Part shown: one piece after another, positions 1 through 18,777 of the stretch
How positions within the stretch are numbered: position 1 is the first letter of the stretch
How the letters are laid out: the number at the start of each line of letters is the position of its first letter
Origin: Minisyncoccota bacterium
GTDB taxonomy: Bacteria > Patescibacteriota > Minisyncoccia > UBA6257
DNA: 64,000 nt
Reading direction: 5' to 3'
Assembly (NCBI GenBank): GCA_028694995.1
Contig: JAQVJU010000002.1
Location: 2,046-66,045, forward strand
Position numbers and translations under genes: made by a program
The notes under the pieces: model-generated
What the model was told of the DNA's origin: nothing
The model's database searches: none
Seen by the model: only the letters and a program-made list of their open reading frames with translations

Positions 1-50
1 GGAATTGTCGGGTAATTAACTATTAAAACCAATAGTTACTTGGTTTTAAG

Positions 51-139
51 TTATCCCCAATAGACTTGACAAGGTTTTTATATTTGCTATACTAATAATG
101 CTGTCGTTTTTGGCTTGCCAAAGGCGACAGCATTTTTTT
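51..139 (+). repeat. Copy 1 of the repeated DnaA-box-like/promoter/hairpin module (TTATCCCCA variant - TTGACA - 16 nt - TATACT - hairpin GCTGTCG..CGACAGC - T7)
   Basis: Read directly. -35 TTGACA at 66-71, -10 TATACT at 88-93. Hairpin 100-131 followed by a T-tract. Near-identical to the modules at 2943, 5903, 6717 and 7563. Confidence 0.7.
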
Positions 140-257
140 ATCTCATATTATTTAGGAAGTTTTATATCTTTAATTCTTGACAAACTTATAATAAAGATAT
201 ATTATAACTCAATTAAGAACTTTGAAAACTTAATAAAAAAAAGAAAGGAGAGAAAAA

Positions 258-1379
258 ATGGAGAAGCTAATTGATTTTTTTCTATTTTTAATAGGAGTAA
301 GAAGAGAAAAGAAAATTCCTGTAAATTTTCAGCCGTCGGTTACTGTTTTAATCCCTGCTTACAAAGAAGAAGAAACAATAAAAGATACTATTTTAAGTAT
401 TCAGGCTCAGAGCTATCAAGTAGATGAAATTATTGTAATAGATGATTGCTCTAAGGACAAGACTGGTTTAATATCAAGATCTCTAGGGGCTAAAGTAGTT
501 CGTATCCCTAAAAATTCAGGGACTAAATCTAGGGCTCAAAATTTTGGTCTTAAGTTTGTTAAAACTGATTTAGTGATTACTGTTGATGCTGATACTATCC
601 TTGATCAAAAAGCGATAGAATTAATAATTCCTGCTATGAGTGATCGCAAAGTGCTTTCAGCTTGTGGGTTTGTTATTCCTCAAGTAATTAAAACTTTTTG
701 GGAAAGATGTCGCTTAATTCAGTATTTGTATTATATTAGTCTTAATAAAAATGCTCAATCTCACTGGCAGGTACCATTAGTGTCTTCAGGTTGTTTTTCA
801 GTTTTTAATACAAAGATGTTAAAAAAAATGGGTGGATTTCCTGAGGGGACGATAGTGGAGGATATGGATTTAACCTGGAGAGCCCATCTTGAAAAGAAAA
901 AAATTAAATTTATACCTGAAGCAGTTTGCTATCCAAAAGATCCAAATAATTGGCAACAATACAAGGCACAGGTAATGCGTTGGAATAGAGGATTTTTACA
1001 ATGTGTAAAAGAATATAAAGTATCATTGATAAAAAATCCTCGCTTATGCTTTTTTGTTGCTTGGTATCTTTTATCAGGGATTATCCAGCCTCTGTATTTA
1101 GGGTTTTTTATTTGGTATGTGTTTTGGTTTTTTTCAACAAAAGCCTATCTAGGGGAAGTAATTTTTATTTTAATATTTTTTGGACTTTTGTTGGAAATGT
1201 TAATTGTGTTTACTTTTGTTCTGATATCAGGAATTCGTTATAAGCACTTTAAAATAGCTTTAACCAGTTTTCCTTGCTATTGGTTAATAAGCCCAATTGA
1301 CACTTATTTGTTTGTAAATGCCCTAATACAAGAATGGGTTTTAGGGAGAAAACTTGAATCATGGGAAAAAGGGCATTGA
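258..1379 (+). CDS. Family 2 glycosyltransferase with C-terminal multi-pass membrane domain (processive polysaccharide synthase-like, PgaC/IcaA/cellulose-synthase-like architecture)
   Basis: N-terminal GT-A fold signatures (IPAYKEEETI, DDCSKD, VDAD = DXD). Hydrophobic C-terminal half with several predicted TM helices. RBS AAAGGAGAG upstream. Confidence 0.75.
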   Translation: MEKLIDFFLFLIGVRREKKIPVNFQPSVTVLIPAYKEEETIKDTILSIQAQSYQVDEIIVIDDCSKDKTGLISRSLGAKVVRIPKNSGTKSRAQNFGLKFVKTDLVITVDADTILDQKAIELIIPAMSDRKVLSACGFVIPQVIKTFWERCRLIQYLYYISLNKNAQSHWQVPLVSSGCFSVFNTKMLKKMGGFPEGTIVEDMDLTWRAHLEKKKIKFIPEAVCYPKDPNNWQQYKAQVMRWNRGFLQCVKEYKVSLIKNPRLCFFVAWYLLSGIIQPLYLGFFIWYVFWFFSTKAYLGEVIFILIFFGLLLEMLIVFTFVLISGIRYKHFKIALTSFPCYWLISPIDTYLFVNALIQEWVLGRKLESWEKGH

Positions 1380-1435
1380 AGGGAGGGATATACTTGATTG
1401 TAAAAAATATAAAAAAAGGAAAGGAGGTGAAATAA

Positions 1436-2209
1436 ATGTACGGAGGACCTCAAACTATATCTGGAAGTATAATTCATATTCTATGTCGTTACCCTATTTT
1501 AGTAGTTCCTATAGCTCTGGGCCTTATCTTTGGAATACCTAACTTATCTCAAGTTGCTGAAGATAGTTTACCTAGCTCAATGATAACTTTTGCTTTTGAT
1601 GATGGGTATTTTTCTACTTATGAAAAAGCTTTTCCTATTTTAGAAAAATATACATTTCCGGCTACGGTTTTTGTAATTTCTTCAGTAATTGGAGAACCAG
1701 GTCATATGACTGCGGAACAAATTCTAGAATTGGCAGATAAAGGATGGGAGATTGGTTCTCATACTGAAACTCATTCTGATTTAACTCAGCTTACTGATGA
1801 ACAATTAAAACATGAGCTTGTAAACTCAAAGCAACATCTTGAAGAACTGGGTTTAATAGTAAAGAACTTTGCCTCTCCTTATGGCAAGTATGACGAAAGG
1901 GTTATTAAAATGATAGCTAAGTATTATGATTCTCATCGAACCGCTTGGCCAGATGGGTTAAATGATTTACCCTTAGATAATTTAAATCGTTATTACTTGA
2001 AATCTGTTTCAGTTGAAGCTAGAACGACTATAGAAGAAGTGAAAGAGTGGGTAATAAAAGCAAAGAATGAAGGGAAATGGTTAATTCTCCTTTTCCATCG
2101 CATTGATGAAACAGGCGATTATAACTGGACCTCAAGGGATTTTGAAGAAATTGTTAAATTTGTGCACGAGGAAAAGTTTAAAGGAGTTTCAATTAAAGAA
2201 ATGAGGTGA
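1436..2209 (+). CDS. Polysaccharide deacetylase (NodB homology / CE4 family)
   Basis: N-terminal TM segment. CE4 motifs TFAFDDGY and GSHTETHSDL. RBS GGAGGTGA 7 nt upstream. Adjacent to the GT2 synthase. Confidence 0.8.
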   Translation: MYGGPQTISGSIIHILCRYPILVVPIALGLIFGIPNLSQVAEDSLPSSMITFAFDDGYFSTYEKAFPILEKYTFPATVFVISSVIGEPGHMTAEQILELADKGWEIGSHTETHSDLTQLTDEQLKHELVNSKQHLEELGLIVKNFASPYGKYDERVIKMIAKYYDSHRTAWPDGLNDLPLDNLNRYYLKSVSVEARTTIEEVKEWVIKAKNEGKWLILLFHRIDETGDYNWTSRDFEEIVKFVHEEKFKGVSIKEMR

Positions 2210-2355
2210 TGATTTTATAAAATGATAAAAGGGAAGATAAATCTTCCCTTTTTAATTTAAACCTTATATATTGACAAAATTGTATAAATGATATATAATC
2301 TTGATATATTTGAACTAGTAACTTGAAAATTAAAAAATGAAAGGAGGTGAAAGAA

Positions 2356-2898
2356 ATGAGAAAAAGATTGTTAATCTTAGTGGTTTTAATGGTATTATTC
2401 TTGGGTGCTTGTAGAGACGGAGCAATAATTCCTTCAGTGACAGAAGATATAGAGATTTGGGTAACTGGCTTTGAGCAAGAGGTATTCTGCAATAACGCTA
2501 AGGGTGTCACCAGGGTTTTTAATGGAGACTTACCTAAAGATTTGACAAGATGTTATGGTCCTCCTAGCTGTTGCCCTCCATGTAATTGCCCAGTATGTGA
2601 AGTATGTGAAGAATGCTCAGAATGTCCAACTTGCCCTTCTTGTGGACCTTGCTGCTGTTATTTGAAATGGGGAAATGTCTACGTTGATTACAAAATGAAG
2701 AATTTAGGGTTAAAGGATTTAACCGTTAAAAATGTTTGTTTTGAAATCACGTTTGAAGACAACACAAAAACTGTTAAATGCGTGGAATTACAAGAAGGTT
2801 TACTAGAGGGAGAAGTAAAAGGTAAACAAGCTAAATTCACTCTCTCTCCTGTCAAGAGAGTGATTTACGTTGTTGTGCAAAAAATAGAATATTATTAA
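2356..2898 (+). CDS. Cysteine-rich lipoprotein (signal peptide + lipobox LGAC; CxxC/CC cluster)
   Basis: Start chosen at the ATG preceded by AAGGAGGTGA. Lipobox L-G-A-C. A 30-residue tract CCPPCNCPVCEVCEECSECPTCPSCGPCCC. Confidence 0.55.
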   Translation: MRKRLLILVVLMVLFLGACRDGAIIPSVTEDIEIWVTGFEQEVFCNNAKGVTRVFNGDLPKDLTRCYGPPSCCPPCNCPVCEVCEECSECPTCPSCGPCCCYLKWGNVYVDYKMKNLGLKDLTVKNVCFEITFEDNTKTVKCVELQEGLLEGEVKGKQAKFTLSPVKRVIYVVVQKIEYY

Positions 2899-2942
2899 AA
2901 CCAAAAGGGACTATATTATATAGTCTCTTTTTCATTTTAAAA

Positions 2943-3031
2943 GTTATCCACAATAGACTTGACAAGGGATTTGGATTTGATATACTAATAATGCTGTCGT
3001 TTTTGGCTTGCCAAGGGCGACAGCATTTTTT
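2943..3031 (+). repeat. Copy 2 of the DnaA-box/promoter/hairpin module (TTATCCACA 2944-2952, TTGACA 2959-2964, TATACT 2981-2986, hairpin 2993-3024, T-tract)
   Basis: Read directly from the sequence. Confidence 0.7.
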
Positions 3032-3072
3032 ATTCCATAGTTTGCGAAATTATTAATTAATGAATAAAAGAC

Positions 3073-3199
3073 TTGACAATTTTTATTTATCATGTATACT
3101 GTTTTGTAGTGGGGTAAGCTTTTCCGGAAGAGCTTATAAAACCTATTTTCCAAAATTTTGGAGGTTTTAAAGTGGCGTTGAAAAACGCCACTTTTTTTT
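3073..3199 (+). ncRNA. Candidate small RNA: consensus sigma70 promoter (TTGACA 3073-3078, TATACT 3095-3100) driving a ~95-nt transcript that ends at the intrinsic terminator GTGGCG-TTGAAAAA-CGCCAC-T8 (3172-3199)
   Basis: Promoter spacing of 16 nt and a perfect terminator. An internal stem AAGCT-TTTCCGGAAG-AGCTT. No ORF above 9 codons. Confidence 0.4.
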
Positions 3200-3408
3200 A
3201 ACTTAATTCCTTGATTGTTTTAAAGAAGATCCTATTATTTATTGATAATATAATAATTAAGATTTACAAATTGAATTATTAAGTATTGATTAATAAAATT
3301 TTCTAATAATGATCTTTAAAATAACTCTTAAGAATTATTTTTTAAATTTAAAATTAAATTTTTAAAAATTTCCTTAAATTTGACAAATTTGTTTTTTATT
3401 TAAAAAAC

Positions 3409-3612
3409 TTGACAAGGACTTGACAAATAAAAAATAATAGAGTATCATGTAAGTACGGTGGGGTTCTCCCCTGGGTCTGCAAAGGCCCAGGGGAGACTAC
3501 TACTAAGTAGATAAACAATAAAAATGGTGGGATGCTCTCTTTTAAACAAATACAAAAGTTTATCTGCTTCCGAGGCAGATTAGTTAAATTGACGTTATTC
3601 GTCAATTTTTTT
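3409..3612 (+). ncRNA. Candidate structured small RNA (~160 nt): duplicated TTGACA (3409-3414, 3420-3425), 17-nt spacer, TATCAT (3443-3448), GC-rich stems, and terminator TTGACG-TTATTC-GTCAA-T7 (3589-3612)
   Basis: A strong 10-bp stem CTCCCCTGGG..CCCAGGGGAG, which is unusual against the AT-rich background. A second stem TCTGCTTC-CGA-GGCAGA. No plausible ORF. The antisense 69-aa ORF 3396..3605 is judged spurious. Confidence 0.45.
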
Positions 3613-3818
3613 AATTAACCACTAGATTAACTATTAGGGATTAAAAAAAGAATATTGCAGGAAGATTAGTGTTTGTGTTTTCCCCATATCAGAAATCCTC
3701 CTAATAGTTCATGATGGGACAATAGATCTATTAAAAGTGATTTTAATTTCCTTAATGATTAATTAAAAGATTATTTTGTTTCCTATGCATTTAATTATTT
3801 CAGATTTTAGTAAACATA

Positions 3819-4298
3819 ATGAATTTGATTAAACATAGAAAATTTTTACAATTATTATCATTTTTAGTAATAATAATTTGTTCTTTGTTATTTTTAATAA
3901 ATGATGTTGATGCTAAAAGAGGTTGTTGTTCTTGGCATGGCGGAGTATCTCATTGTGACTCATCGGTTGGGGGATATGTTTGTAATGATGGCACCTATAG
4001 TCCTTCTTGTACTTGCGGGGTTATAATCCCTGTTCCTATTCCTTCCCCAACTACTCTTGAGCCTACTACAACGACTACTAAACCTACAACTACAACAATA
4101 ATTGGTATAACACCCGCTGCTGTATTAGAAACAGAAATTCAAGAAAAAAACCTAGGAATAGAGGAAGAACTAGAATTTTCAGCTTCTGAAAAATTAATGG
4201 CACAAGTACATAAAGAAAACATTGGTATTTCTGCTTGGTGGTGGATAATAGGCATAGGGGCTATATCTTATTTGTTTGTCTATAAATTTAAAAAATAA
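3819..4298 (+). CDS. Secreted Cys/His-rich protein with Pro/Thr-rich linker and C-terminal TM anchor followed by basic tail (KFKK)
   Basis: N-terminal hydrophobic signal or anchor. Motif GCCSWHGGVSHCDSSVGGYVCNDGTYSPSCTC. Linker TTTTTKPTTTT. C-terminal TM segment. Confidence 0.5.
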   Translation: MNLIKHRKFLQLLSFLVIIICSLLFLINDVDAKRGCCSWHGGVSHCDSSVGGYVCNDGTYSPSCTCGVIIPVPIPSPTTLEPTTTTTKPTTTTIIGITPAAVLETEIQEKNLGIEEELEFSASEKLMAQVHKENIGISAWWWIIGIGAISYLFVYKFKK

Positions 4299-4334
4299 AA
4301 AACTAAAGGTCGAAAATTAATGAATTAAAAAAAT

Positions 4335-5846
4335 ATGAATAAAAAATTTCTTACAAAAACATTTGCAATTGCAATGGTATTAAGTTTATTACTTTCTAAT
4401 GGATTGATGTTAGGATTGGAGAGAGCAGAAGCAAAAGTAAGAAAAGAAGACCCTAGTAAAAATGGAAATGGGAATGGGAATGATGAATTATATCTTTGTC
4501 ATTTTGAAGATGAAGGAGATAATCCTTATACAAAGATACTAGGGTTTGAGAAGAATAGCATAGCTGGCGAGCATGATAAAGACGAAGATGATATTATTCC
4601 TAGTTATCTTTATACTTCAGACTGTGATGTGGAAAATCATAACTGTAAACTAAAAAAAATAGATTGGGGGAATTCTAAGACGCAAGGAAGTGTTTTGGGA
4701 GACTCTATTAATCTTGATGGGCATTTATGGCAAGGGTCACAAGAATTAGCTTCAATTATTGGGGATAGCACAAATATTAAGGTTTCTTTTTCAGATCCCC
4801 TTATGGCATATGTTATAGATCTTAAAATAAAAGAAAAAGATTCAAAAGGAAAAATATTATCTGAAAAAGATTATGCTTCTAAATGCCAAGGTCCAGAGGG
4901 TTGTACTCTTTCTCCGGAAGAAGGAATTAAGTTTTACTCTGTAAGTTGGGATCTGCAAAAAGTTAACAAATTTCACTATGAGTGTTATTATCCTGGTAAA
5001 AATTTGGAGAGTGGGCAAGACATTTTAAATAATAATTGCGAGGTTCCCTCAGAAAATGAAAATGGGGAAGGGAATGGGGAAGGGAATGGAGAAGGGGATG
5101 GAGAAGGGAATGGAGGAGGGAATGGAGAAGGAACTACAACTACTACAACAACAAGACCTGGTCCTACAGGTTCACATATTCCACCACAAGAAGCTCATGG
5201 GGAAGGCTCTTTAGGAGAACCTGGCCCTGGGGAGGGTATTGTAGCTGGTGCTGCTTGTGTTCCTTATATCCAAGAATATATTCAATATGGAGCTGATAAT
5301 GATCCATTTGAAGTTAGGAAATTACAAATCTTCTTAAATGGATATTTGGGATTGAATTTAGATGTTAATGGAATTTATGATTTAGAAACATTTGAAGCTG
5401 TAAAAACATTCCAACTTATGTTCAAGGATGATATTTTAGCTCCTTGGGTTGCAAATGGATGCTTACCTTCAAAAGAAATAGCTACGGGTTATGTTTATCG
5501 AACTACTAGTTGGGCGATTAATAAAGTTTTTTGCCCAGGAATGGAAATAGATATTTCTGATGAAATATGTTTTGGCTTAGGTGAAGGATTAGTTTTAGGA
5601 GAATCTATTGCCTTAGCTGATGATGGCTCAATGTCAGAAGGAGATATTTTAGATTTTCCTGTTAGTTCTGAACAAGAACCAGAAGAAGAAGTAATGGAAA
5701 TTTCAGAAACTGAAGATATAGAAACAACAGAATTAGAAGAAACAGAAGAAGAAACAGCAACTAATAAAGGAGCCATAATAGCTTTATTAGTTGTTTTAGC
5801 CTTAGGTGGCTTAGCTTACTTTATCTTTAGAGGAAAACGAACTTGA
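4335..5846 (+). CDS. Large secreted surface protein: signal peptide, GNGNGNG and GEGNGEGNG repeats, Thr7 linker, PG_binding_1-like domain, acidic E/T-rich tract, C-terminal TM anchor + RGKRT tail
   Basis: The segment VRKLQIFLNGYLGLNLDVNGIYDLETFEAVKTFQ matches the peptidoglycan-binding (PG_binding_1) consensus. The C-terminus AIIALLVVLALGGLAYFIFRGKRT forms a TM anchor plus basic tail. Confidence 0.6.
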   Translation: MNKKFLTKTFAIAMVLSLLLSNGLMLGLERAEAKVRKEDPSKNGNGNGNDELYLCHFEDEGDNPYTKILGFEKNSIAGEHDKDEDDIIPSYLYTSDCDVENHNCKLKKIDWGNSKTQGSVLGDSINLDGHLWQGSQELASIIGDSTNIKVSFSDPLMAYVIDLKIKEKDSKGKILSEKDYASKCQGPEGCTLSPEEGIKFYSVSWDLQKVNKFHYECYYPGKNLESGQDILNNNCEVPSENENGEGNGEGNGEGDGEGNGGGNGEGTTTTTTTRPGPTGSHIPPQEAHGEGSLGEPGPGEGIVAGAACVPYIQEYIQYGADNDPFEVRKLQIFLNGYLGLNLDVNGIYDLETFEAVKTFQLMFKDDILAPWVANGCLPSKEIATGYVYRTTSWAINKVFCPGMEIDISDEICFGLGEGLVLGESIALADDGSMSEGDILDFPVSSEQEPEEEVMEISETEDIETTELEETEEETATNKGAIIALLVVLALGGLAYFIFRGKRT

Positions 5847-5866
5847 AGGTTAGAAATTGGATAAAA

Positions 5867-5894
5867 ACAGGGCTAAATATAGCCCTGTTTTTTA
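5867..5894 (+). terminator. Intrinsic terminator of the 4335..5846 gene (ACAGGGCT-AAATAT-AGCCCTGT-T7)
   Basis: Perfect 8-bp GC-rich stem plus a T-tract. Confidence 0.7.
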
Positions 5895-5902
5895 TTTCTT
5901 AA

Positions 5903-5999
5903 GTTATCCACAAAAGACTTGACAAGGTTTTTATATTTGCTATACTATTAGTGCTGTCATTTAGAGAAGCTTGCTTCAATGAATGACAGCATTTTTTTT
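5903..5999 (+). repeat. Copy 3 of the module (TTATCCACA 5904-5912, TTGACA 5919-5924, TATACT 5941-5946, variant hairpin GCTGTCATT..AATGACAGC 5953-5990, T8)
   Basis: The stem is conserved and extended by compensatory changes while the loop is replaced. Confidence 0.7.
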
Positions 6000-6157
6000 A
6001 TAATTTTTTGATAAAAGAAGTGATTAGTCATCTCTTTTTTTATTTGTTAATTAATTAAAGATAGTTTTAATTTATATTGACTTTAAGTATTTAAAATGGT
6101 ATAATTATAAAAGGATAAAAGAGTTCTTTTAAAAATAAAAATAAGGAGGAAAAGAAA

Positions 6158-6694
6158 ATGGAAGAGAGAAAAAAGAAAGTTTTTATTTTAATTTTTGCTG
6201 TGGTTTTTATATTCATTTTAGTAGATTATGTAAATTGGAGATTATCCCATAATTGGGAGATTGTAGATACCAATTTACCAGTTGAAACCATAAACAGCAC
6301 CGTATGGAGAAGCGCAAGTATAGATATACTTGATCCTATCAAATCTCCTCCAAAAAGTTATGAGTATTCAAATCTTAGGATAGCGGCATTTAAGGTACGG
6401 TACCCTAAAGCTAAGGGAGGAGGATATGTTCATGAAGTTTTTCTTAGGGAGTGGTTTAAGAGGAGTAACTTAAAAGTTCGCTATACGGGCTTTGAAGGGA
6501 TACCGGATTTTTATATTGCTGTAGAATTCATACAGGGAAGAATGGAAATCATCAGTGATAGCAAGTTATATAATTATAAAGGAGAAATCTTTATAGAATT
6601 ATTTTCCAATAATAAGAATTTACTGGCTCAAAAAAGAATTAAGGTAAACATAAATAACAAACCGCCAGAGGTAAAAGAATTAACAGGGCTTTAA
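6158..6694 (+). CDS. Hypothetical N-terminally membrane-anchored protein, paralog A of a tandem pair
   Basis: Strong RBS AAGGAGGA. N-terminal TM helix. Shares the motifs YPK.K, NLK and F..V.FI.GR..I...Y.GEI.I.L with the 6967..7539 product. Confidence 0.5.
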   Translation: MEERKKKVFILIFAVVFIFILVDYVNWRLSHNWEIVDTNLPVETINSTVWRSASIDILDPIKSPPKSYEYSNLRIAAFKVRYPKAKGGGYVHEVFLREWFKRSNLKVRYTGFEGIPDFYIAVEFIQGRMEIISDSKLYNYKGEIFIELFSNNKNLLAQKRIKVNINNKPPEVKELTGL

Positions 6695-6706
6695 AGCCCT
6701 GTTTTT
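6683..6706 (+). terminator. Intrinsic terminator overlapping the stop codon of 6158..6694 (ACAGGGCT-TTAA-AGCCCTGT-T5)
   Basis: The stop codon TAA lies in the hairpin loop. Confidence 0.65.
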
Positions 6707-6716
6707 CATTTCTTGA

Positions 6717-6806
6717 GTTATCCACAAAAGACTTGACAAGGTTTTTAAATTTGCTATACTAATAATGCTGTCGTTTTTGGCTTGCCAGAAGCGGCAGCAT
6801 TTTTTT
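6717..6806 (+). repeat. Copy 4 of the module (TTATCCACA 6718-6726, TTGACA 6733-6738, TATACT 6755-6760, hairpin GCTGTCG..CGGCAGC with a U-G wobble, T7)
   Basis: Read directly from the sequence. Confidence 0.7.
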
Positions 6807-6966
6807 ATAATTTTTTGATAAAAGAGATGATTTATCATCTCTTTTTTAATGGTTAATTAATTAAAGATAGTTTTAATTTATATTGACTTTAATCATTTAA
6901 AATGGTATAATTATAAAAAGATAAAAGAGTTCTTTTAAAAATAAAAATTAAAGAGGAGAGAAAAAA

Positions 6967-7539
6967 ATGAAAAAGGTTTTTATAGTTATTCTAATTATAA
7001 TTATAGGGTTATTTTTAATAGATTTTATAGGTTATGTAATAAAATCAAGCTATAAAGAGAATAAGGAGCTGGGGGGAAGTTGGGAAATCGAAAGTTTAGA
7101 CCTGCCAATCATAATAAGAAAAAACTGTATCGTAGTGGGGGGTCCAAGTTGGGAACCAGAAGACCCTTTGCCCTCAAGAGTTGAAAGGGATGTATTTTTA
7201 GAAATGAGGGTAGCCAATTTTAGAATATACTACCCTAAAACAAAAAATATAGTCCATGAAATTGATCTCCAAATGTGGGAAAAGCAGGGAAACTTGAAGT
7301 TATATGTCGCTAGACCTGAAGAGTCGAACCCCTTCAAAATGAGTACTGTAAAGTTTATAGAGGGGAGAGTAGATATCTGGCTTAGAATGGAAGTCGGTAA
7401 GTATGAGGGGGAGATTCATATTCAGCTAATTAATAATGACGGGATATTAATAGGTGAAGGCAAGGCCTTTGTGGAAGTAAATATAGAAAAGGGGGTGCTA
7501 GAGATACTAGAAGAAGAATTTAATATAACAGGGTCTTAA
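6967..7539 (+). CDS. Hypothetical N-terminally membrane-anchored protein, paralog B of the tandem pair
   Basis: A ~150-bp upstream region, including a TTGACT-17-TATAAT promoter and RBS, is about 90% identical to that of 6158. The proteins are much more diverged than these flanks. Confidence 0.5.
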   Translation: MKKVFIVILIIIIGLFLIDFIGYVIKSSYKENKELGGSWEIESLDLPIIIRKNCIVVGGPSWEPEDPLPSRVERDVFLEMRVANFRIYYPKTKNIVHEIDLQMWEKQGNLKLYVARPEESNPFKMSTVKFIEGRVDIWLRMEVGKYEGEIHIQLINNDGILIGEGKAFVEVNIEKGVLEILEEEFNITGS

Positions 7540-7562
7540 GGCTCTGTTTTTATTATTTCTGA

Positions 7563-7652
7563 GTTATCCACAAAAGACTTGACAAGGTTTTTATATTTGC
7601 TATACTAATAATGCTGTCGTTTTTGGCTTGCCAGAAGCGGCAGCATTTTTTT
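7563..7652 (+). repeat. Copy 5 of the module (TTATCCACA 7564-7572, TTGACA 7579-7584, TATACT 7601-7606, hairpin 7613-7644, T7)
   Basis: Read directly from the sequence. Confidence 0.7.
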
Positions 7653-7744
7653 ATAATTCTTATTATTGACAAAAAGACAATAACAAGATATTATCTAAAT
7701 TAGATATTTAGTACTTTGAAAATTAAAAAAGGAGATATTAAAAA

Positions 7745-8113
7745 ATGAAAAGGAAATTGGTTTTAGGAGTTTTTGTATTTTTGATTTTAATTATTTTTTC
7801 TTGTTTTGCTAATGCTCAATATAATTTTCTTTCTGAACAATCAAATTGGGGAATTGAGCATTTAAAAGAAAAGTATCACATAAAAGATAAGCAAAATAAA
7901 GAAGAAATAATAGTAGAGGGTTTTATCTGGGGAGTTATCGTCCCAGAAAATGAGGGATATTCTTTTATAGAATATACAGAAATGATTGAGGATAAAGAAT
8001 ATATAATAACAGAAATAATTATAGAAAATCCTCAAGGGTCTATTAGGATAGTATGGGGACCAGGGGCACAGAATAATCCTTTAGACGTCCCTAAAATTAT
8101 AGTGAGGAGGTGA
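7745..8113 (+). CDS. Small secreted hypothetical protein (signal peptide ...FANA-Q)
   Basis: ORF with RBS GGAGATA. N-terminal hydrophobic segment. Confidence 0.4.
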   Translation: MKRKLVLGVFVFLILIIFSCFANAQYNFLSEQSNWGIEHLKEKYHIKDKQNKEEIIVEGFIWGVIVPENEGYSFIEYTEMIEDKEYIITEIIIENPQGSIRIVWGPGAQNNPLDVPKIIVRR

Positions 8114-12099: not shown

Positions 12100-12204
12100 A
12101 TAAAAAAATGCTGTTGACTTGAAGAGCAAGCTCATCTAATCAACAGCACCTTTATTGTATCAAATGGAGAATGTTTGTCAAGTCAAATAACTATTATAAA
12201 AATT

Positions 12205-18704: not shown

Positions 18705-18777
18705 GCTCCCGTAGCTCAATTGGTAGAGCAACAGCCTTTTAAGCTGGCGGTTGCGCGTTCAAGTCGCGCCGGGGGCA
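18705..18777 (+). tRNA. tRNA-Lys (anticodon UUU), CCA not encoded
   Basis: Cloverleaf folded by hand. Acceptor GCTCCCG/CGGGGGC, D-arm GCTC-AATTGGTA-GAGC, anticodon loop CTTTTAA (U33, UUU, A37), T-arm GCGCG-TTCAAGT-CGCGC, discriminator A. Confidence 0.85.

What the first reader, a model, noticed from the sequence alone, without database searches (positions are those of the whole stretch)
3073..3199. Orphan promoter-to-terminator unit #1 (candidate ~95-nt sRNA)
TTGACA-16-TATACT at 3073-3100 is followed by a non-coding stretch with an internal stem (AAGCUUUUCCGGAAGAGCUU). It ends in a canonical terminator GUGGCG-UUGAAAAA-CGCCAC-U8 at 3172-3199. The longest ORF is 9 codons, a GTG-start peptide that would run through the terminator. 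The unit lies inside the accessory region between the Cys-rich lipoprotein gene and the surface-protein genes.
Basis: seen in the sequence. Interest (0 to 1): 0.5.

Follow-up and report, generated by a model that had tools for sequence, protein, structure and literature searches.

The report
Candidate small RNA gene in Pacebacteria
A consensus promoter followed about 92 bases later by a textbook terminator, with no conserved reading frame, looks like a small non-coding RNA gene confined to one narrow lineage of uncultivated Pacebacteria; it is a credible but ordinary and unvalidated candidate.

Summary
These are TTGACA-16-TATACT (3073-3100), an internal hairpin, a canonical terminator (3169-3194, GAAA loop, U8, -15.9 kcal/mol) and no ORF longer than 9 codons inside the transcript.

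The organism is an uncultivated Candidatus Pacebacteria bacterium (Candidate Phyla Radiation, CPR). I recovered five alleles of the locus from related metagenome contigs.
- The predicted RNA body (3107-3168) has 1 substituted column in 62, against 37 in 237 in the untranscribed flanks (Fisher p = 0.0009).
- Conservation begins at the predicted transcription start.
- A 2-nt insertion and changes in U-tract length break every overlapping ORF.
- The four substitutions fall in loops or give G-U pairs.
- One allele has lost the downstream genes but keeps the unit intact.

There is no Rfam match and no covariation. No copy turned up outside this species-level clade, and there is no expression evidence.

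The best reading is an independently transcribed, lineage-specific sRNA of about 92 nt and unknown target (confidence about 0.5). Its promoter belongs to a repeated promoter-hairpin cassette family, and it is the middle of three tandem orphan units. Rivals are a leader for a possible 23-codon ORF at 3211-3282, a DNA-level element, or neutral hitch-hiking.

The parts
3064..3072 (+). Invariant A-rich motif ATAAAAGAC upstream of the -35. AAGAC is shared with the D1 cassette promoters.
   Evidence: Invariant in all 5 alleles, while 3054-3063 varies. The motif is shared with the D1 copies.
3073..3100 (+). Sigma-70-type promoter TTGACA-16-TATACT
   Evidence: Matches 11 of 12 consensus positions. Both hexamers are invariant in 5 alleles, with 2 spacer substitutions. 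It has the same -35, spacing and -10 as the D1 cassette promoters.
3107..3199 (+). Predicted transcript of about 92 nt. The start at about 3107-3109 is inferred, not mapped.
   Evidence: 4 of the 6 positions 3101-3106 vary, and the sequence is invariant from 3107 on. Whole RNA has 4 of 93 substituted columns against 37 of 237 in the flanks, p = 0.0025.
3114..3137 (+). Hairpin 1: a 10-bp stem with a CCGG loop (3124-3127) and a bulge where the L025-type allele carries a TA insertion after 3134
   Evidence: dG -8.8 kcal/mol. The only body substitution, C3125U, is in the loop.
3138..3168 (+). Hairpin 2: AAAACC/GGUUUU encloses UCCAA/UUGGA and sequesters the SD-like GGAGG (3160-3164)
   Evidence: Consensus fold. 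All 11 pairs are invariant. The hairpin is weak on its own, dG -5.1 kcal/mol.
3172..3201 (+). Mini-ORF with a GTG start 7 nt after GGAGG, lying inside the terminator stem. Probably not a functional peptide.
   Evidence: Its length and frame differ among alleles: 9, 13, 13, 13 and 10 codons.
3169..3199 (+). Intrinsic terminator: 11-bp stem, GAAA tetraloop, U8 tract
   Evidence: dG -15.9 kcal/mol. The allele changes A3169G and C3191U give G-U pairs, and G3180U is in the loop.

Best explanation
Window 3073-3199 is a self-contained transcription unit of an uncultivated Candidatus Pacebacteria bacterium. A near-consensus sigma-70 promoter starts an RNA at about 3107-3109. The RNA folds into two hairpins (3114-3137 and 3138-3168). 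A strong intrinsic terminator (3169-3199) releases it as a non-coding RNA of about 92 nt.

Shown by the analysis:
- the sequence signals are present;
- there is no conserved ORF;
- the transcribed segment is under stronger purifying selection than its flanks;
- all substitutions are compatible with the structure;
- the unit does not depend on the downstream genes.

Inferred only:
- that the RNA is actually made and is stable;
- that it acts in trans, either by pairing through its invariant unpaired segments (the 5' UAGUGGG and the UAUUU internal loop), or as a mimic of a translation-initiation region (GGA in the hairpin-1 loop, GGAGG plus GUG) that titrates a binding factor.

The target and the physiological role are unknown. 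Because the unit always lies next to hypervariable surface-protein genes, a role in their control is the natural guess.
For: - The promoter matches 11 of 12 consensus positions and the terminator is canonical. Such sites are far more frequent here than in shuffled or simulated sequence.
- Six neighbouring protein genes have TTGAC[AT]-17-TATAAT/TATTAT-type promoters 45-50 nt upstream of their SD and ATG, so this promoter type probably operates in this organism.
- Five alleles were recovered at a syntenic position downstream of the lipoprotein gene.
- The body 3107-3168 has 1 of 62 substituted columns, against 37 of 237 in the flanks (Fisher p = 0.0009). The discriminator 3101-3106 has 4 of 6 variable, so constraint begins at the predicted start.
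- All 32 predicted pairs are kept in all alleles. Two substitutions are in loops. The other two turn A-U and G-C into G-U, which pairs only in the + strand RNA.
- The TA insertion and the U-tract changes shift every overlapping ORF.
- The L041-type allele has lost the 3' half of unit 2, the 159-aa gene and the large surface-protein gene, yet keeps unit 1 intact.
- No antiterminator is available: the best alternative duplex with the terminator 5' arm is -5.6 kcal/mol, against -15.9 for the terminator.
Against: - There is no expression evidence.
- There is no compensatory covariation: 30 of 32 pairs never vary.
- The body alone does not fold significantly better than shuffles (z -1.8).
- Divergence is low. 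The whole 2899-4298 segment is about 95% identical between lineages whose housekeeping genes are about 88% identical, and invariant runs of 70-100 nt occur elsewhere in it, including in coding sequence. Part of the conservation may therefore reflect recent recombination.
- No copy was found outside the clade, either by a 20-mer scan of metagenome contigs or by a covariance model on more distant Pacebacteria loci.
- No convincing target was found among 61 translation-initiation regions in the window.
Confidence: 0.5

Rival explanations
1. Unit 1 is the 5' leader of a small-protein mRNA. Transcripts that read through the terminator would encode the 23-codon ORF at 3211-3282 (TTG start, MIVLKKILLFIDNIIIKIYKLNY). 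The SD-like GGAGG plus the GTG mini-ORF inside the terminator stem would act as an upstream ORF. Its translation would oppose terminator folding, and its stop codon lies next to the TTG, which would allow re-initiation.
For: - ORF23 is open and 23 codons long in all 5 alleles.
- 7 of its 9 variable sites are at third codon positions (binomial P = 0.008). Six changes are synonymous and three are conservative.
- The mini-ORF stop lies within 4 nt before to 9 nt after the point where the TTG begins in every allele, and it overlaps the TTG as TTGA in three of them.
- GGAGG, the 7-nt spacer and GTG resemble the real ribosome-binding sites nearby.
Against: - P is about 0.025 after correcting for three frames, and it rests on only 9 sites.
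- ORF23 has a TTG start, no SD of its own and no promoter of its own.
- The terminator is strong (U8, -15.9 kcal/mol), and no alternative structure exists.
- The SD emerges only about 5 nt before the terminator stem begins, which leaves little time for a ribosome to load.
- The mini-ORF frame and length are not conserved.
- All three frames hit a stop in this AT-rich stretch, so the closeness of stop and start is expected by chance.
- ORF23 has no paralog in the held sequences.
Confidence: 0.13
2. The unit is a DNA-level or transcription-level element rather than an RNA gene. It would be one more copy of the clade's promoter cassette (AAGAC-TTGACA-16-TATACT followed by a terminator). It would serve as an insulator, a polymerase sink or a bound regulatory site between surface-protein genes. 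The palindromes TTCCGGAA and CCAAAATTTTGG would then be protein-binding sites, and the RNA itself a by-product.
For: - The promoter module is shared with six D1 cassettes in the window. Their transcripts would be only a hairpin of about 45 nt plus a U tract, and each sits upstream of the real gene promoter.
- Three such units stand in tandem within a 920-nt intergenic region.
- The conserved body contains two perfect DNA palindromes.
Against: - An insulator needs only the promoter and the terminator, yet the 62-nt body between them is the most conserved part.
- The two stem substitutions give G-U pairs, which are mismatches at the DNA level or on the other strand.
- Conservation begins at the predicted start, not at the palindromes.
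Confidence: 0.15
3. The unit has no function of its own. It is a decayed cassette copy whose low divergence reflects recent recombination spreading the whole lipoprotein-downstream segment among lineages.
For: - L036 is 97.8% identical to the window over 10.4 kb but carries the L025-type intergenic allele, so recombination is active here.
- The adjacent 159-aa gene is also about 95-99% identical between these contigs.
- Long invariant runs occur elsewhere in the segment.
- There is no covariation and no homolog outside the clade.
Against: - Within the same alleles and the same genealogy, the flanks vary at 15.6% of columns and the body at 1.6% (p = 0.0009).
- The promoter hexamers, all helices and the terminator are intact in all five alleles.
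- A 920-nt non-coding gap sits in a window where most neighbouring ORFs are separated by only tens of bases.
Confidence: 0.12

Closest known systems
Generic Hfq-independent, intrinsic-terminator-ended sRNA genes of low-GC bacteria (for example RsaE/RoxS-type; comparison from general knowledge)
   Same: It is a stand-alone sigma-70-type promoter followed by an RNA of about 90-100 nt with two hairpins and a Rho-independent terminator. It has no conserved ORF and lies in an intergenic region.
   Different: It has no sequence or covariance-model match to any such family. It lacks the C-rich UCCC loop motifs of those families and instead carries an SD-like GGAGG. Targets and expression are unknown, and it is confined to one species-level Pacebacteria clade.
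D1 promoter-hairpin cassettes of the same genome (window 47-148, 2940-3041, 5900-6001, 6714-6815, 7560-7661 on the + strand; 12181-12102 on the - strand)
   Same: The promoter module is the same (AAGAC-TTGACA-16-TATACT). Both are promoter-to-terminator units without a gene, and both occur among the surface-protein genes.
   Different: Unit 1 lacks the GTTATCCACA box upstream. It also lacks the UGCUGU...ACAGCA hairpin with its CUUG loop. It has a unique 62-nt body and a different terminator, and it is single-copy.
Leader-peptide or terminator attenuators (trp- or pyrBI-type; comparison from general knowledge)
   Same: An SD plus a short ORF overlaps an intrinsic terminator that lies close behind a promoter.
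   Different: There is no antiterminator alternative, and the peptide frame and length are not conserved. The nearest substantial gene is 620 nt away, behind two more promoter-like sites and a terminator. The unit also survives deletion of that gene in the L041-type allele.
Rfam RF02579 tsr26 (S. aureus sRNA), the best-scoring Rfam alignment
   Same: It has a similar length and ends in a terminator hairpin.
   Different: It scores 27.3 bits against a gathering score of 141 (E = 0.072 on a 1-kb search), and the alignment rests on the terminator and U/A-rich runs. It is not a member.

Membership tests
Any Rfam 15 family | Covariance-model score at or above the family's gathering threshold | tested here: not met
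   A gathering-threshold scan of the window found only tRNA-Lys at 18705. A permissive scan of 2850-3850 gave a best of 27.3 bits (tsr26, gathering score 141). All other hits were far below threshold.
Bacterial small SRP RNA / 6S / tmRNA / RNase P (housekeeping RNAs) | A match to the family model, and presence across all related genomes | tested here: not met
   None of these families appears even at E <= 10. The unit is also absent from the more distant Pacebacteria loci searched with model R1.
Stand-alone bacterial sRNA gene (generic class) | Own promoter and own intrinsic terminator | tested here: met
Stand-alone bacterial sRNA gene (generic class) | No conserved protein-coding frame | tested here: met
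   Indels shift every overlapping ORF, and the mini-ORF length varies among alleles.
Stand-alone bacterial sRNA gene (generic class) | Transcribed segment more conserved than its flanks | tested here: met
   1 of 62 substituted columns against 37 of 237, p = 0.0009.
Stand-alone bacterial sRNA gene (generic class) | Secondary structure supported by compensatory changes | tested here: inconclusive
   No pair changes on both sides, and 30 of 32 pairs never vary. The two one-sided changes keep pairing through G-U.
Stand-alone bacterial sRNA gene (generic class) | A discrete transcript is detected | not testable with these tools
   No transcriptome data are available here.
Transcription attenuator / riboswitch leader | Mutually exclusive antiterminator structure | tested here: not met
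   The best duplex between the body and the terminator 5' arm is -5.6 kcal/mol, against -15.9 for the terminator.
Transcription attenuator / riboswitch leader | A regulated gene directly downstream in the same transcript | tested here: inconclusive
   The nearest gene of 100 aa or more is 620 nt away, behind two further promoter-like sites and a terminator, and it is deleted in the L041-type allele while the unit persists. Only the doubtful 23-codon ORF at 3211-3282 follows directly.
D1 promoter-hairpin cassette family of this clade | TTGACA-16-TATACT promoter preceded by AAGAC | tested here: met
D1 promoter-hairpin cassette family of this clade | GTTATCC(A/C)CA box upstream, and a UGCUGU...ACAGCA hairpin with a CUUG loop directly after the promoter | tested here: not met
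   Both are absent from unit 1. Unit 1 shares only the promoter module.
Type I toxin-antitoxin locus | A small hydrophobic toxin ORF with an overlapping antisense RNA | tested here: not met
   ORF23 is on the same strand and does not overlap unit 1. No conserved ORF lies opposite the unit on the - strand.
CsrB/RsmZ-type protein-titrating RNA | Many GGA motifs in hairpin loops, and a csrA gene in the genome | not tested
   Only two GGA motifs are present, in CCGGAAG and in GGAGG (sequence). I did not search for csrA, and only 64 kb of the genome is available.

The most novel reading that the evidence does not exclude
Pacebacteria of this clade may use a modular expression cassette (AAGAC-TTGACA-16-TATACT followed by a terminator) to make a set of very small RNAs interspersed among hypervariable surface-protein genes. 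Unit 1 would be a cassette loaded with a 62-nt body that mimics a translation-initiation region: GGA in a hairpin loop, then a sequestered GGAGG, a 7-nt spacer and GUG. It would titrate ribosomes or an RNA-binding regulator, or it would couple translation of a mini-ORF to terminator read-through into a 23-residue peptide gene. If confirmed by expression data, these units might be the first described riboregulatory system in the Candidate Phyla Radiation. I base that only on a 2022 TM7x transcriptome preprint that reports no validated small RNAs for that one CPR organism, not on a full literature survey.
Probability: 0.1. Interest if true: 0.6.

Novelty: new member of a known kind. Interest (0 to 1): 0.35.

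Why it matters
A 2022 TM7x transcriptome preprint states that this Candidate Phyla Radiation bacterium has no validated small RNAs. These organisms have tiny, densely coded genomes. That makes a 920-nt non-coding gap holding three tandem promoter-to-terminator units, kept more constant than the neighbouring lipoprotein gene, a good place to look for riboregulation in an episymbiont lineage. The gap lies beside fast-evolving surface proteins, which may mediate host contact. If the RNA is expressed, it gives a concrete and testable candidate. If not, it is one more unvalidated sRNA prediction.

Tried and rejected
- Rfam at gathering and permissive thresholds gave no family.
- A genome-contig scan with the upstream glycosyltransferase found no close relative. 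The best hit was 50% identical, from an Aerophobetes MAG.
- Homologs of the flanking lipoprotein form only three clusters. Homologs of the 159-aa protein beyond its own cluster share only the Cys-rich domain. Orthologous loci therefore exist only in a narrow clade.
- A metagenome scan with the 20-mer GGTAAGCTTTTCCGGAAGAG returned one known-clade contig plus three chance matches inside unrelated coding sequence.
- Viral-contig scans with two unit-1 patterns and one D1 pattern found nothing.
- Covariance model R1, run on more distant Pacebacteria loci reached through YchF (82-88% aa identity), gave no hit. Its next-best hits are generic hairpin or terminator sites.
- Target prediction by duplex folding against 61 translation-initiation regions in the window gave a best z of -3.9 from long, loopy duplexes. 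This was not informative (one search timed out).
- An origin-of-replication reading was rejected. Perfect DnaA-box matches occur only inside the D1 copies and do not cluster in the intergenic region.
- A small-protein reading of the overlapping ORFs (36 aa on the + strand; 33 and 69 aa on the - strand) was rejected because of frameshifts in the L025-type allele.
- An SRP-RNA reading prompted by the UCCGGAAG motif was rejected because no SRP model hit appears even at E <= 10.
- ORF23 has no paralogs in the held sequences.

Full report
**Observation.**
- TTGACA (3073-3078), a 16-nt spacer and TATACT (3095-3100) match 11 of 12 consensus positions.
- The downstream RNA folds into three hairpins. 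HP2 (3138-3168) has AAAACC/GGUUUU enclosing UCCAA/UUGGA. The third is the terminator.
- The terminator AAAGUGGCGUU-GAAA-AACGCCACUUU (3169-3194) is followed by a U tract that completes U8 at 3192-3199, with dG -15.9 kcal/mol.
- The longest ORF that starts inside the transcript is the 9-codon GTG ORF at 3172.
- These signals are not background noise. The window has 20 promoter-like sites at 11/12 or better, against 3.2 +/- 1.8 in simulations, and 15 of them lie in the first 8 kb on the + strand. The first 8 kb has 22 terminator-like sites against 4.1 expected.
- The full RNA folds at z -4.6, but the body without the terminator reaches only z -1.8.

**Organism and relatives.** NCBI names the flanking lipoprotein as coming from a Candidatus Pacebacteria MAG.
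- Exact-protein look-ups found near-identical contigs in four other samples, at 99.6-100% identity.
- Via diverged lipoprotein and 159-aa variants, I recovered four further alleles of the same intergenic region: L025-type, L035, L051-type and L041-type.
- Housekeeping DNA of the L025 lineage is about 88% identical to the window. The lipoprotein is only 54-63% identical at the protein level. The 920-nt intergenic region is about 94.5% identical.
- L036 is 97.8% identical to the window overall but carries the L025-type intergenic allele, so recombination shuffles this region.

**Evidence that the unit is under selection as a transcript.** Across the five alleles (alignments A4-A6):
- The -35 and -10 hexamers and the upstream ATAAAAGAC are invariant.
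- Four of the six positions between the -10 and the predicted start (3101-3106) vary, and the sequence is invariant from 3107 onward.
- The body 3107-3168 has one substituted column in 62, plus one 2-nt insertion. The untranscribed flanks have 37 in 237 (Fisher p = 0.0009). For the whole RNA the figures are 4 in 93 (p = 0.0025).
- The body substitution C3125U lies in the HP1 loop, and the TA insertion after 3134 lies in the HP1 bulge.
- In the terminator, G3180U is in the loop. A3169G and C3191U convert A-U and G-C pairs to G-U, which pair only in the + strand RNA.
- All 32 pairs are kept in all alleles, but none shows a compensatory double change. The structure is therefore compatible with the data, not proven by them.
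- In the L025-type allele, the TA insertion puts the 36-codon + strand ORF into a different frame with a different C-terminus. The 69-codon - strand ORF is truncated to 49 codons and the 33-codon - strand ORF is no longer listed. The GTG mini-ORF is 9, 13, 13, 13 or 10 codons long, in different frames relative to what follows.

**Not a leader of the downstream surface-protein genes.**
- The next substantial gene (159 aa, starting at 3819) is 620 nt away, behind two more promoter-like sites (3409 and 3420) and another terminator at 3586-3608.
- No upstream segment can compete with the terminator. The best alternative duplex is -5.6 kcal/mol.
- In the L041-type allele a deletion removes the 3' half of unit 2, the 159-aa gene and the large surface-protein gene. 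Unit 1 remains intact there and still lies downstream of the lipoprotein gene.

**Context.**
- Unit 1 is the middle of three tandem orphan units. The one upstream (2940-3041) belongs to a repeat family I call D1, with five copies on the + strand in the first 8 kb plus one on the - strand at 12181.
- Each D1 copy consists of GTTATCC(A/C)CA, AAGAC, TTGACA-16-TATACT, then a 17-bp hairpin within a few bases of the -10, and a U tract. At the D1 copies upstream of the genes starting at 258, 6158, 6967 and 7745, a separate TTGAC[AT]-17-TATAAT or TATTAT promoter with a 45-50-nt UTR lies between the D1 copy and the gene.
- Unit 1 shares the D1 promoter module (AAGAC-TTGACA-16-TATACT). It lacks the upstream box and the D1 hairpin, and its body is single-copy.
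- D1-type units also occur in more distant Pacebacteria, with YchF 83-88% identical. In L060 the same promoter type drives an extra hairpin ahead of the D1 hairpin, which suggests a modular promoter/terminator cassette.

**Limits of conservation.**
- No Rfam family matches.
- A 20-mer from HP1 found only the known clade plus three chance matches in unrelated coding sequence in the metagenome collection.
- Viral contigs gave nothing.
- A covariance model built from the five alleles found nothing in about 60 kb of more distant Pacebacteria DNA around ychF.
- The flanking proteins have no orthologs outside the clade.
- The unit is therefore lineage-specific, or it diverges too fast to trace.
- Because the whole 2899-4298 segment is unusually similar among lineages, and long invariant runs occur elsewhere in it, part of the conservation may be hitch-hiking. 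The contrast between body and flanks within the same alleles argues against that being the whole story.

**Mechanism.** The best-supported reading is a stand-alone sRNA of about 92 nt (confidence 0.5).
- How it acts is inferred only. Its invariant unpaired segments are the 5' UAGUGGG, the CCGG loop and the UAUUU internal loop.
- It also carries an SD-like GGAGG (3160-3164) sequestered in HP2, 7 nt upstream of a GUG embedded in the terminator stem. It could pair with targets, or it could mimic a translation-initiation region.
- Duplex predictions against the 61 gene starts available gave nothing convincing.

**Rivals.**
- (a) Leader for a 23-codon ORF at 3211-3282. Its nine variable sites include seven third-codon positions (P = 0.008, about 0.025 after correction). 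However, it has a TTG start, no SD, and sits behind a strong terminator.
- (b) A DNA-level cassette or insulator function.
- (c) No function.

**Novelty and verdict.** This is a new, unclassified member of a familiar kind: the promoter-to-terminator sRNA candidate.
- A 2022 TM7x transcriptome preprint reports no validated small RNAs for that CPR organism. That gives the candidate some value as a test case.
- Nothing in the evidence is surprising to a specialist, and expression is untested.
- Interest is 0.35.

Noticed in passing
window 47-148, 2940-3041, 5900-6001, 6714-6815, 7560-7661 (+); 12181-12102 (-); also L025 10727, 15960, 16829; L041 2695, 3700, 4311, 5711, 6566; L055 8344 (-); L060 116: D1 repeat family. 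Each copy has GTTATCC(A/C)CA (a perfect DnaA-box consensus in 4 copies), then AAGAC-TTGACA-16-TATACT, then a hairpin of about 17 bp directly after the promoter, and a U6-8 tract. The hairpin has a conserved base (UGCUGU...ACAGCA), a G-C-closed CUUG loop and a middle part that differs on both arms between subtypes (GUCG/CGAC, GUCAUU/AAUGAC, GUUGA/UCAAC). At four copies a separate gene promoter lies downstream, so these look like self-contained hairpin transcription units of about 45 nt. Their function is unknown.
   Followed up: partly
window 3409-3615 (+): Orphan unit 2. Overlapping promoter-like sites at 3409 and 3420 are followed by an RNA of about 160 nt. It starts with a 12-bp GC-rich helix (CUCCCCUGGGUC/GGCCCAGGGGAG), and two allele changes there are wobble-compatible. 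A hairpin at 3562-3580 has a loop that varies among alleles (UCCG, CUUA, UUUA). A terminator follows at 3586-3608. There is no Rfam match. No promoter-like site lies between it and the 159-aa gene (3819), so it may be that gene's long leader.
   Followed up: partly
window 3211-3282 (+): A 23-codon ORF with a TTG start (MIVLKKILLFIDNIIIKIYKLNY) begins 11 nt after the unit-1 U tract. It is open in all 5 alleles. Seven of its 9 variable sites are at third codon positions (P = 0.008 uncorrected). It has no SD and no paralog in the held sequences.
   Followed up: partly
window 2347-2898 compared with 2899-4298; L025 10001-12063; L036: Divergence changes sharply at the lipoprotein stop codon. The Cys-rich lipoprotein is 54-63% identical in protein between lineages, with its 3' end about 68% identical in DNA. 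The intergenic region and the 159-aa gene just downstream are 94-99% identical. L036 is a mosaic: 97.8% identical to the window overall, yet carrying the L025-type intergenic allele. This suggests diversifying selection or cassette exchange in the surface proteins, with the conserved repeats as possible recombination anchors.
   Followed up: partly
L041 3640-4431 (also L042) compared with window 3520-5900: This is a natural deletion allele. The sequence runs from the middle of unit 2 straight into the terminator and D1 copy that follow the large surface-protein gene in the window. The 159-aa gene and the 503/795-aa gene are missing, and an M16-type peptidase gene follows.
   Followed up: yes
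window 1-8000 compared with 8000-64000: Near-consensus sigma-70-type promoters (11/12 or better) are concentrated in the first 8 kb, the accessory surface-protein region. Fifteen of the window's 20 lie there, all on the + strand. The housekeeping part of the window has almost none.
   Followed up: partly
L060 116-260 (+): In a more distant Pacebacteria lineage (YchF 83% identical), a D1-type promoter is followed first by a different hairpin (GGUGUUAUUU...AAAUAACACC) and only then by the D1 hairpin. This suggests that the D1 hairpin serves as a shared terminator module for variable small RNA bodies.
   Followed up: no
window 3696-3704 (+): An anti-SD-like AUCCUCCU motif lies in the untranslated region upstream of the 159-aa gene. 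It is invariant in the three alleles that retain this region, and it is complementary to the GGAGG of unit 1 over only about 5 bp.
   Followed up: no
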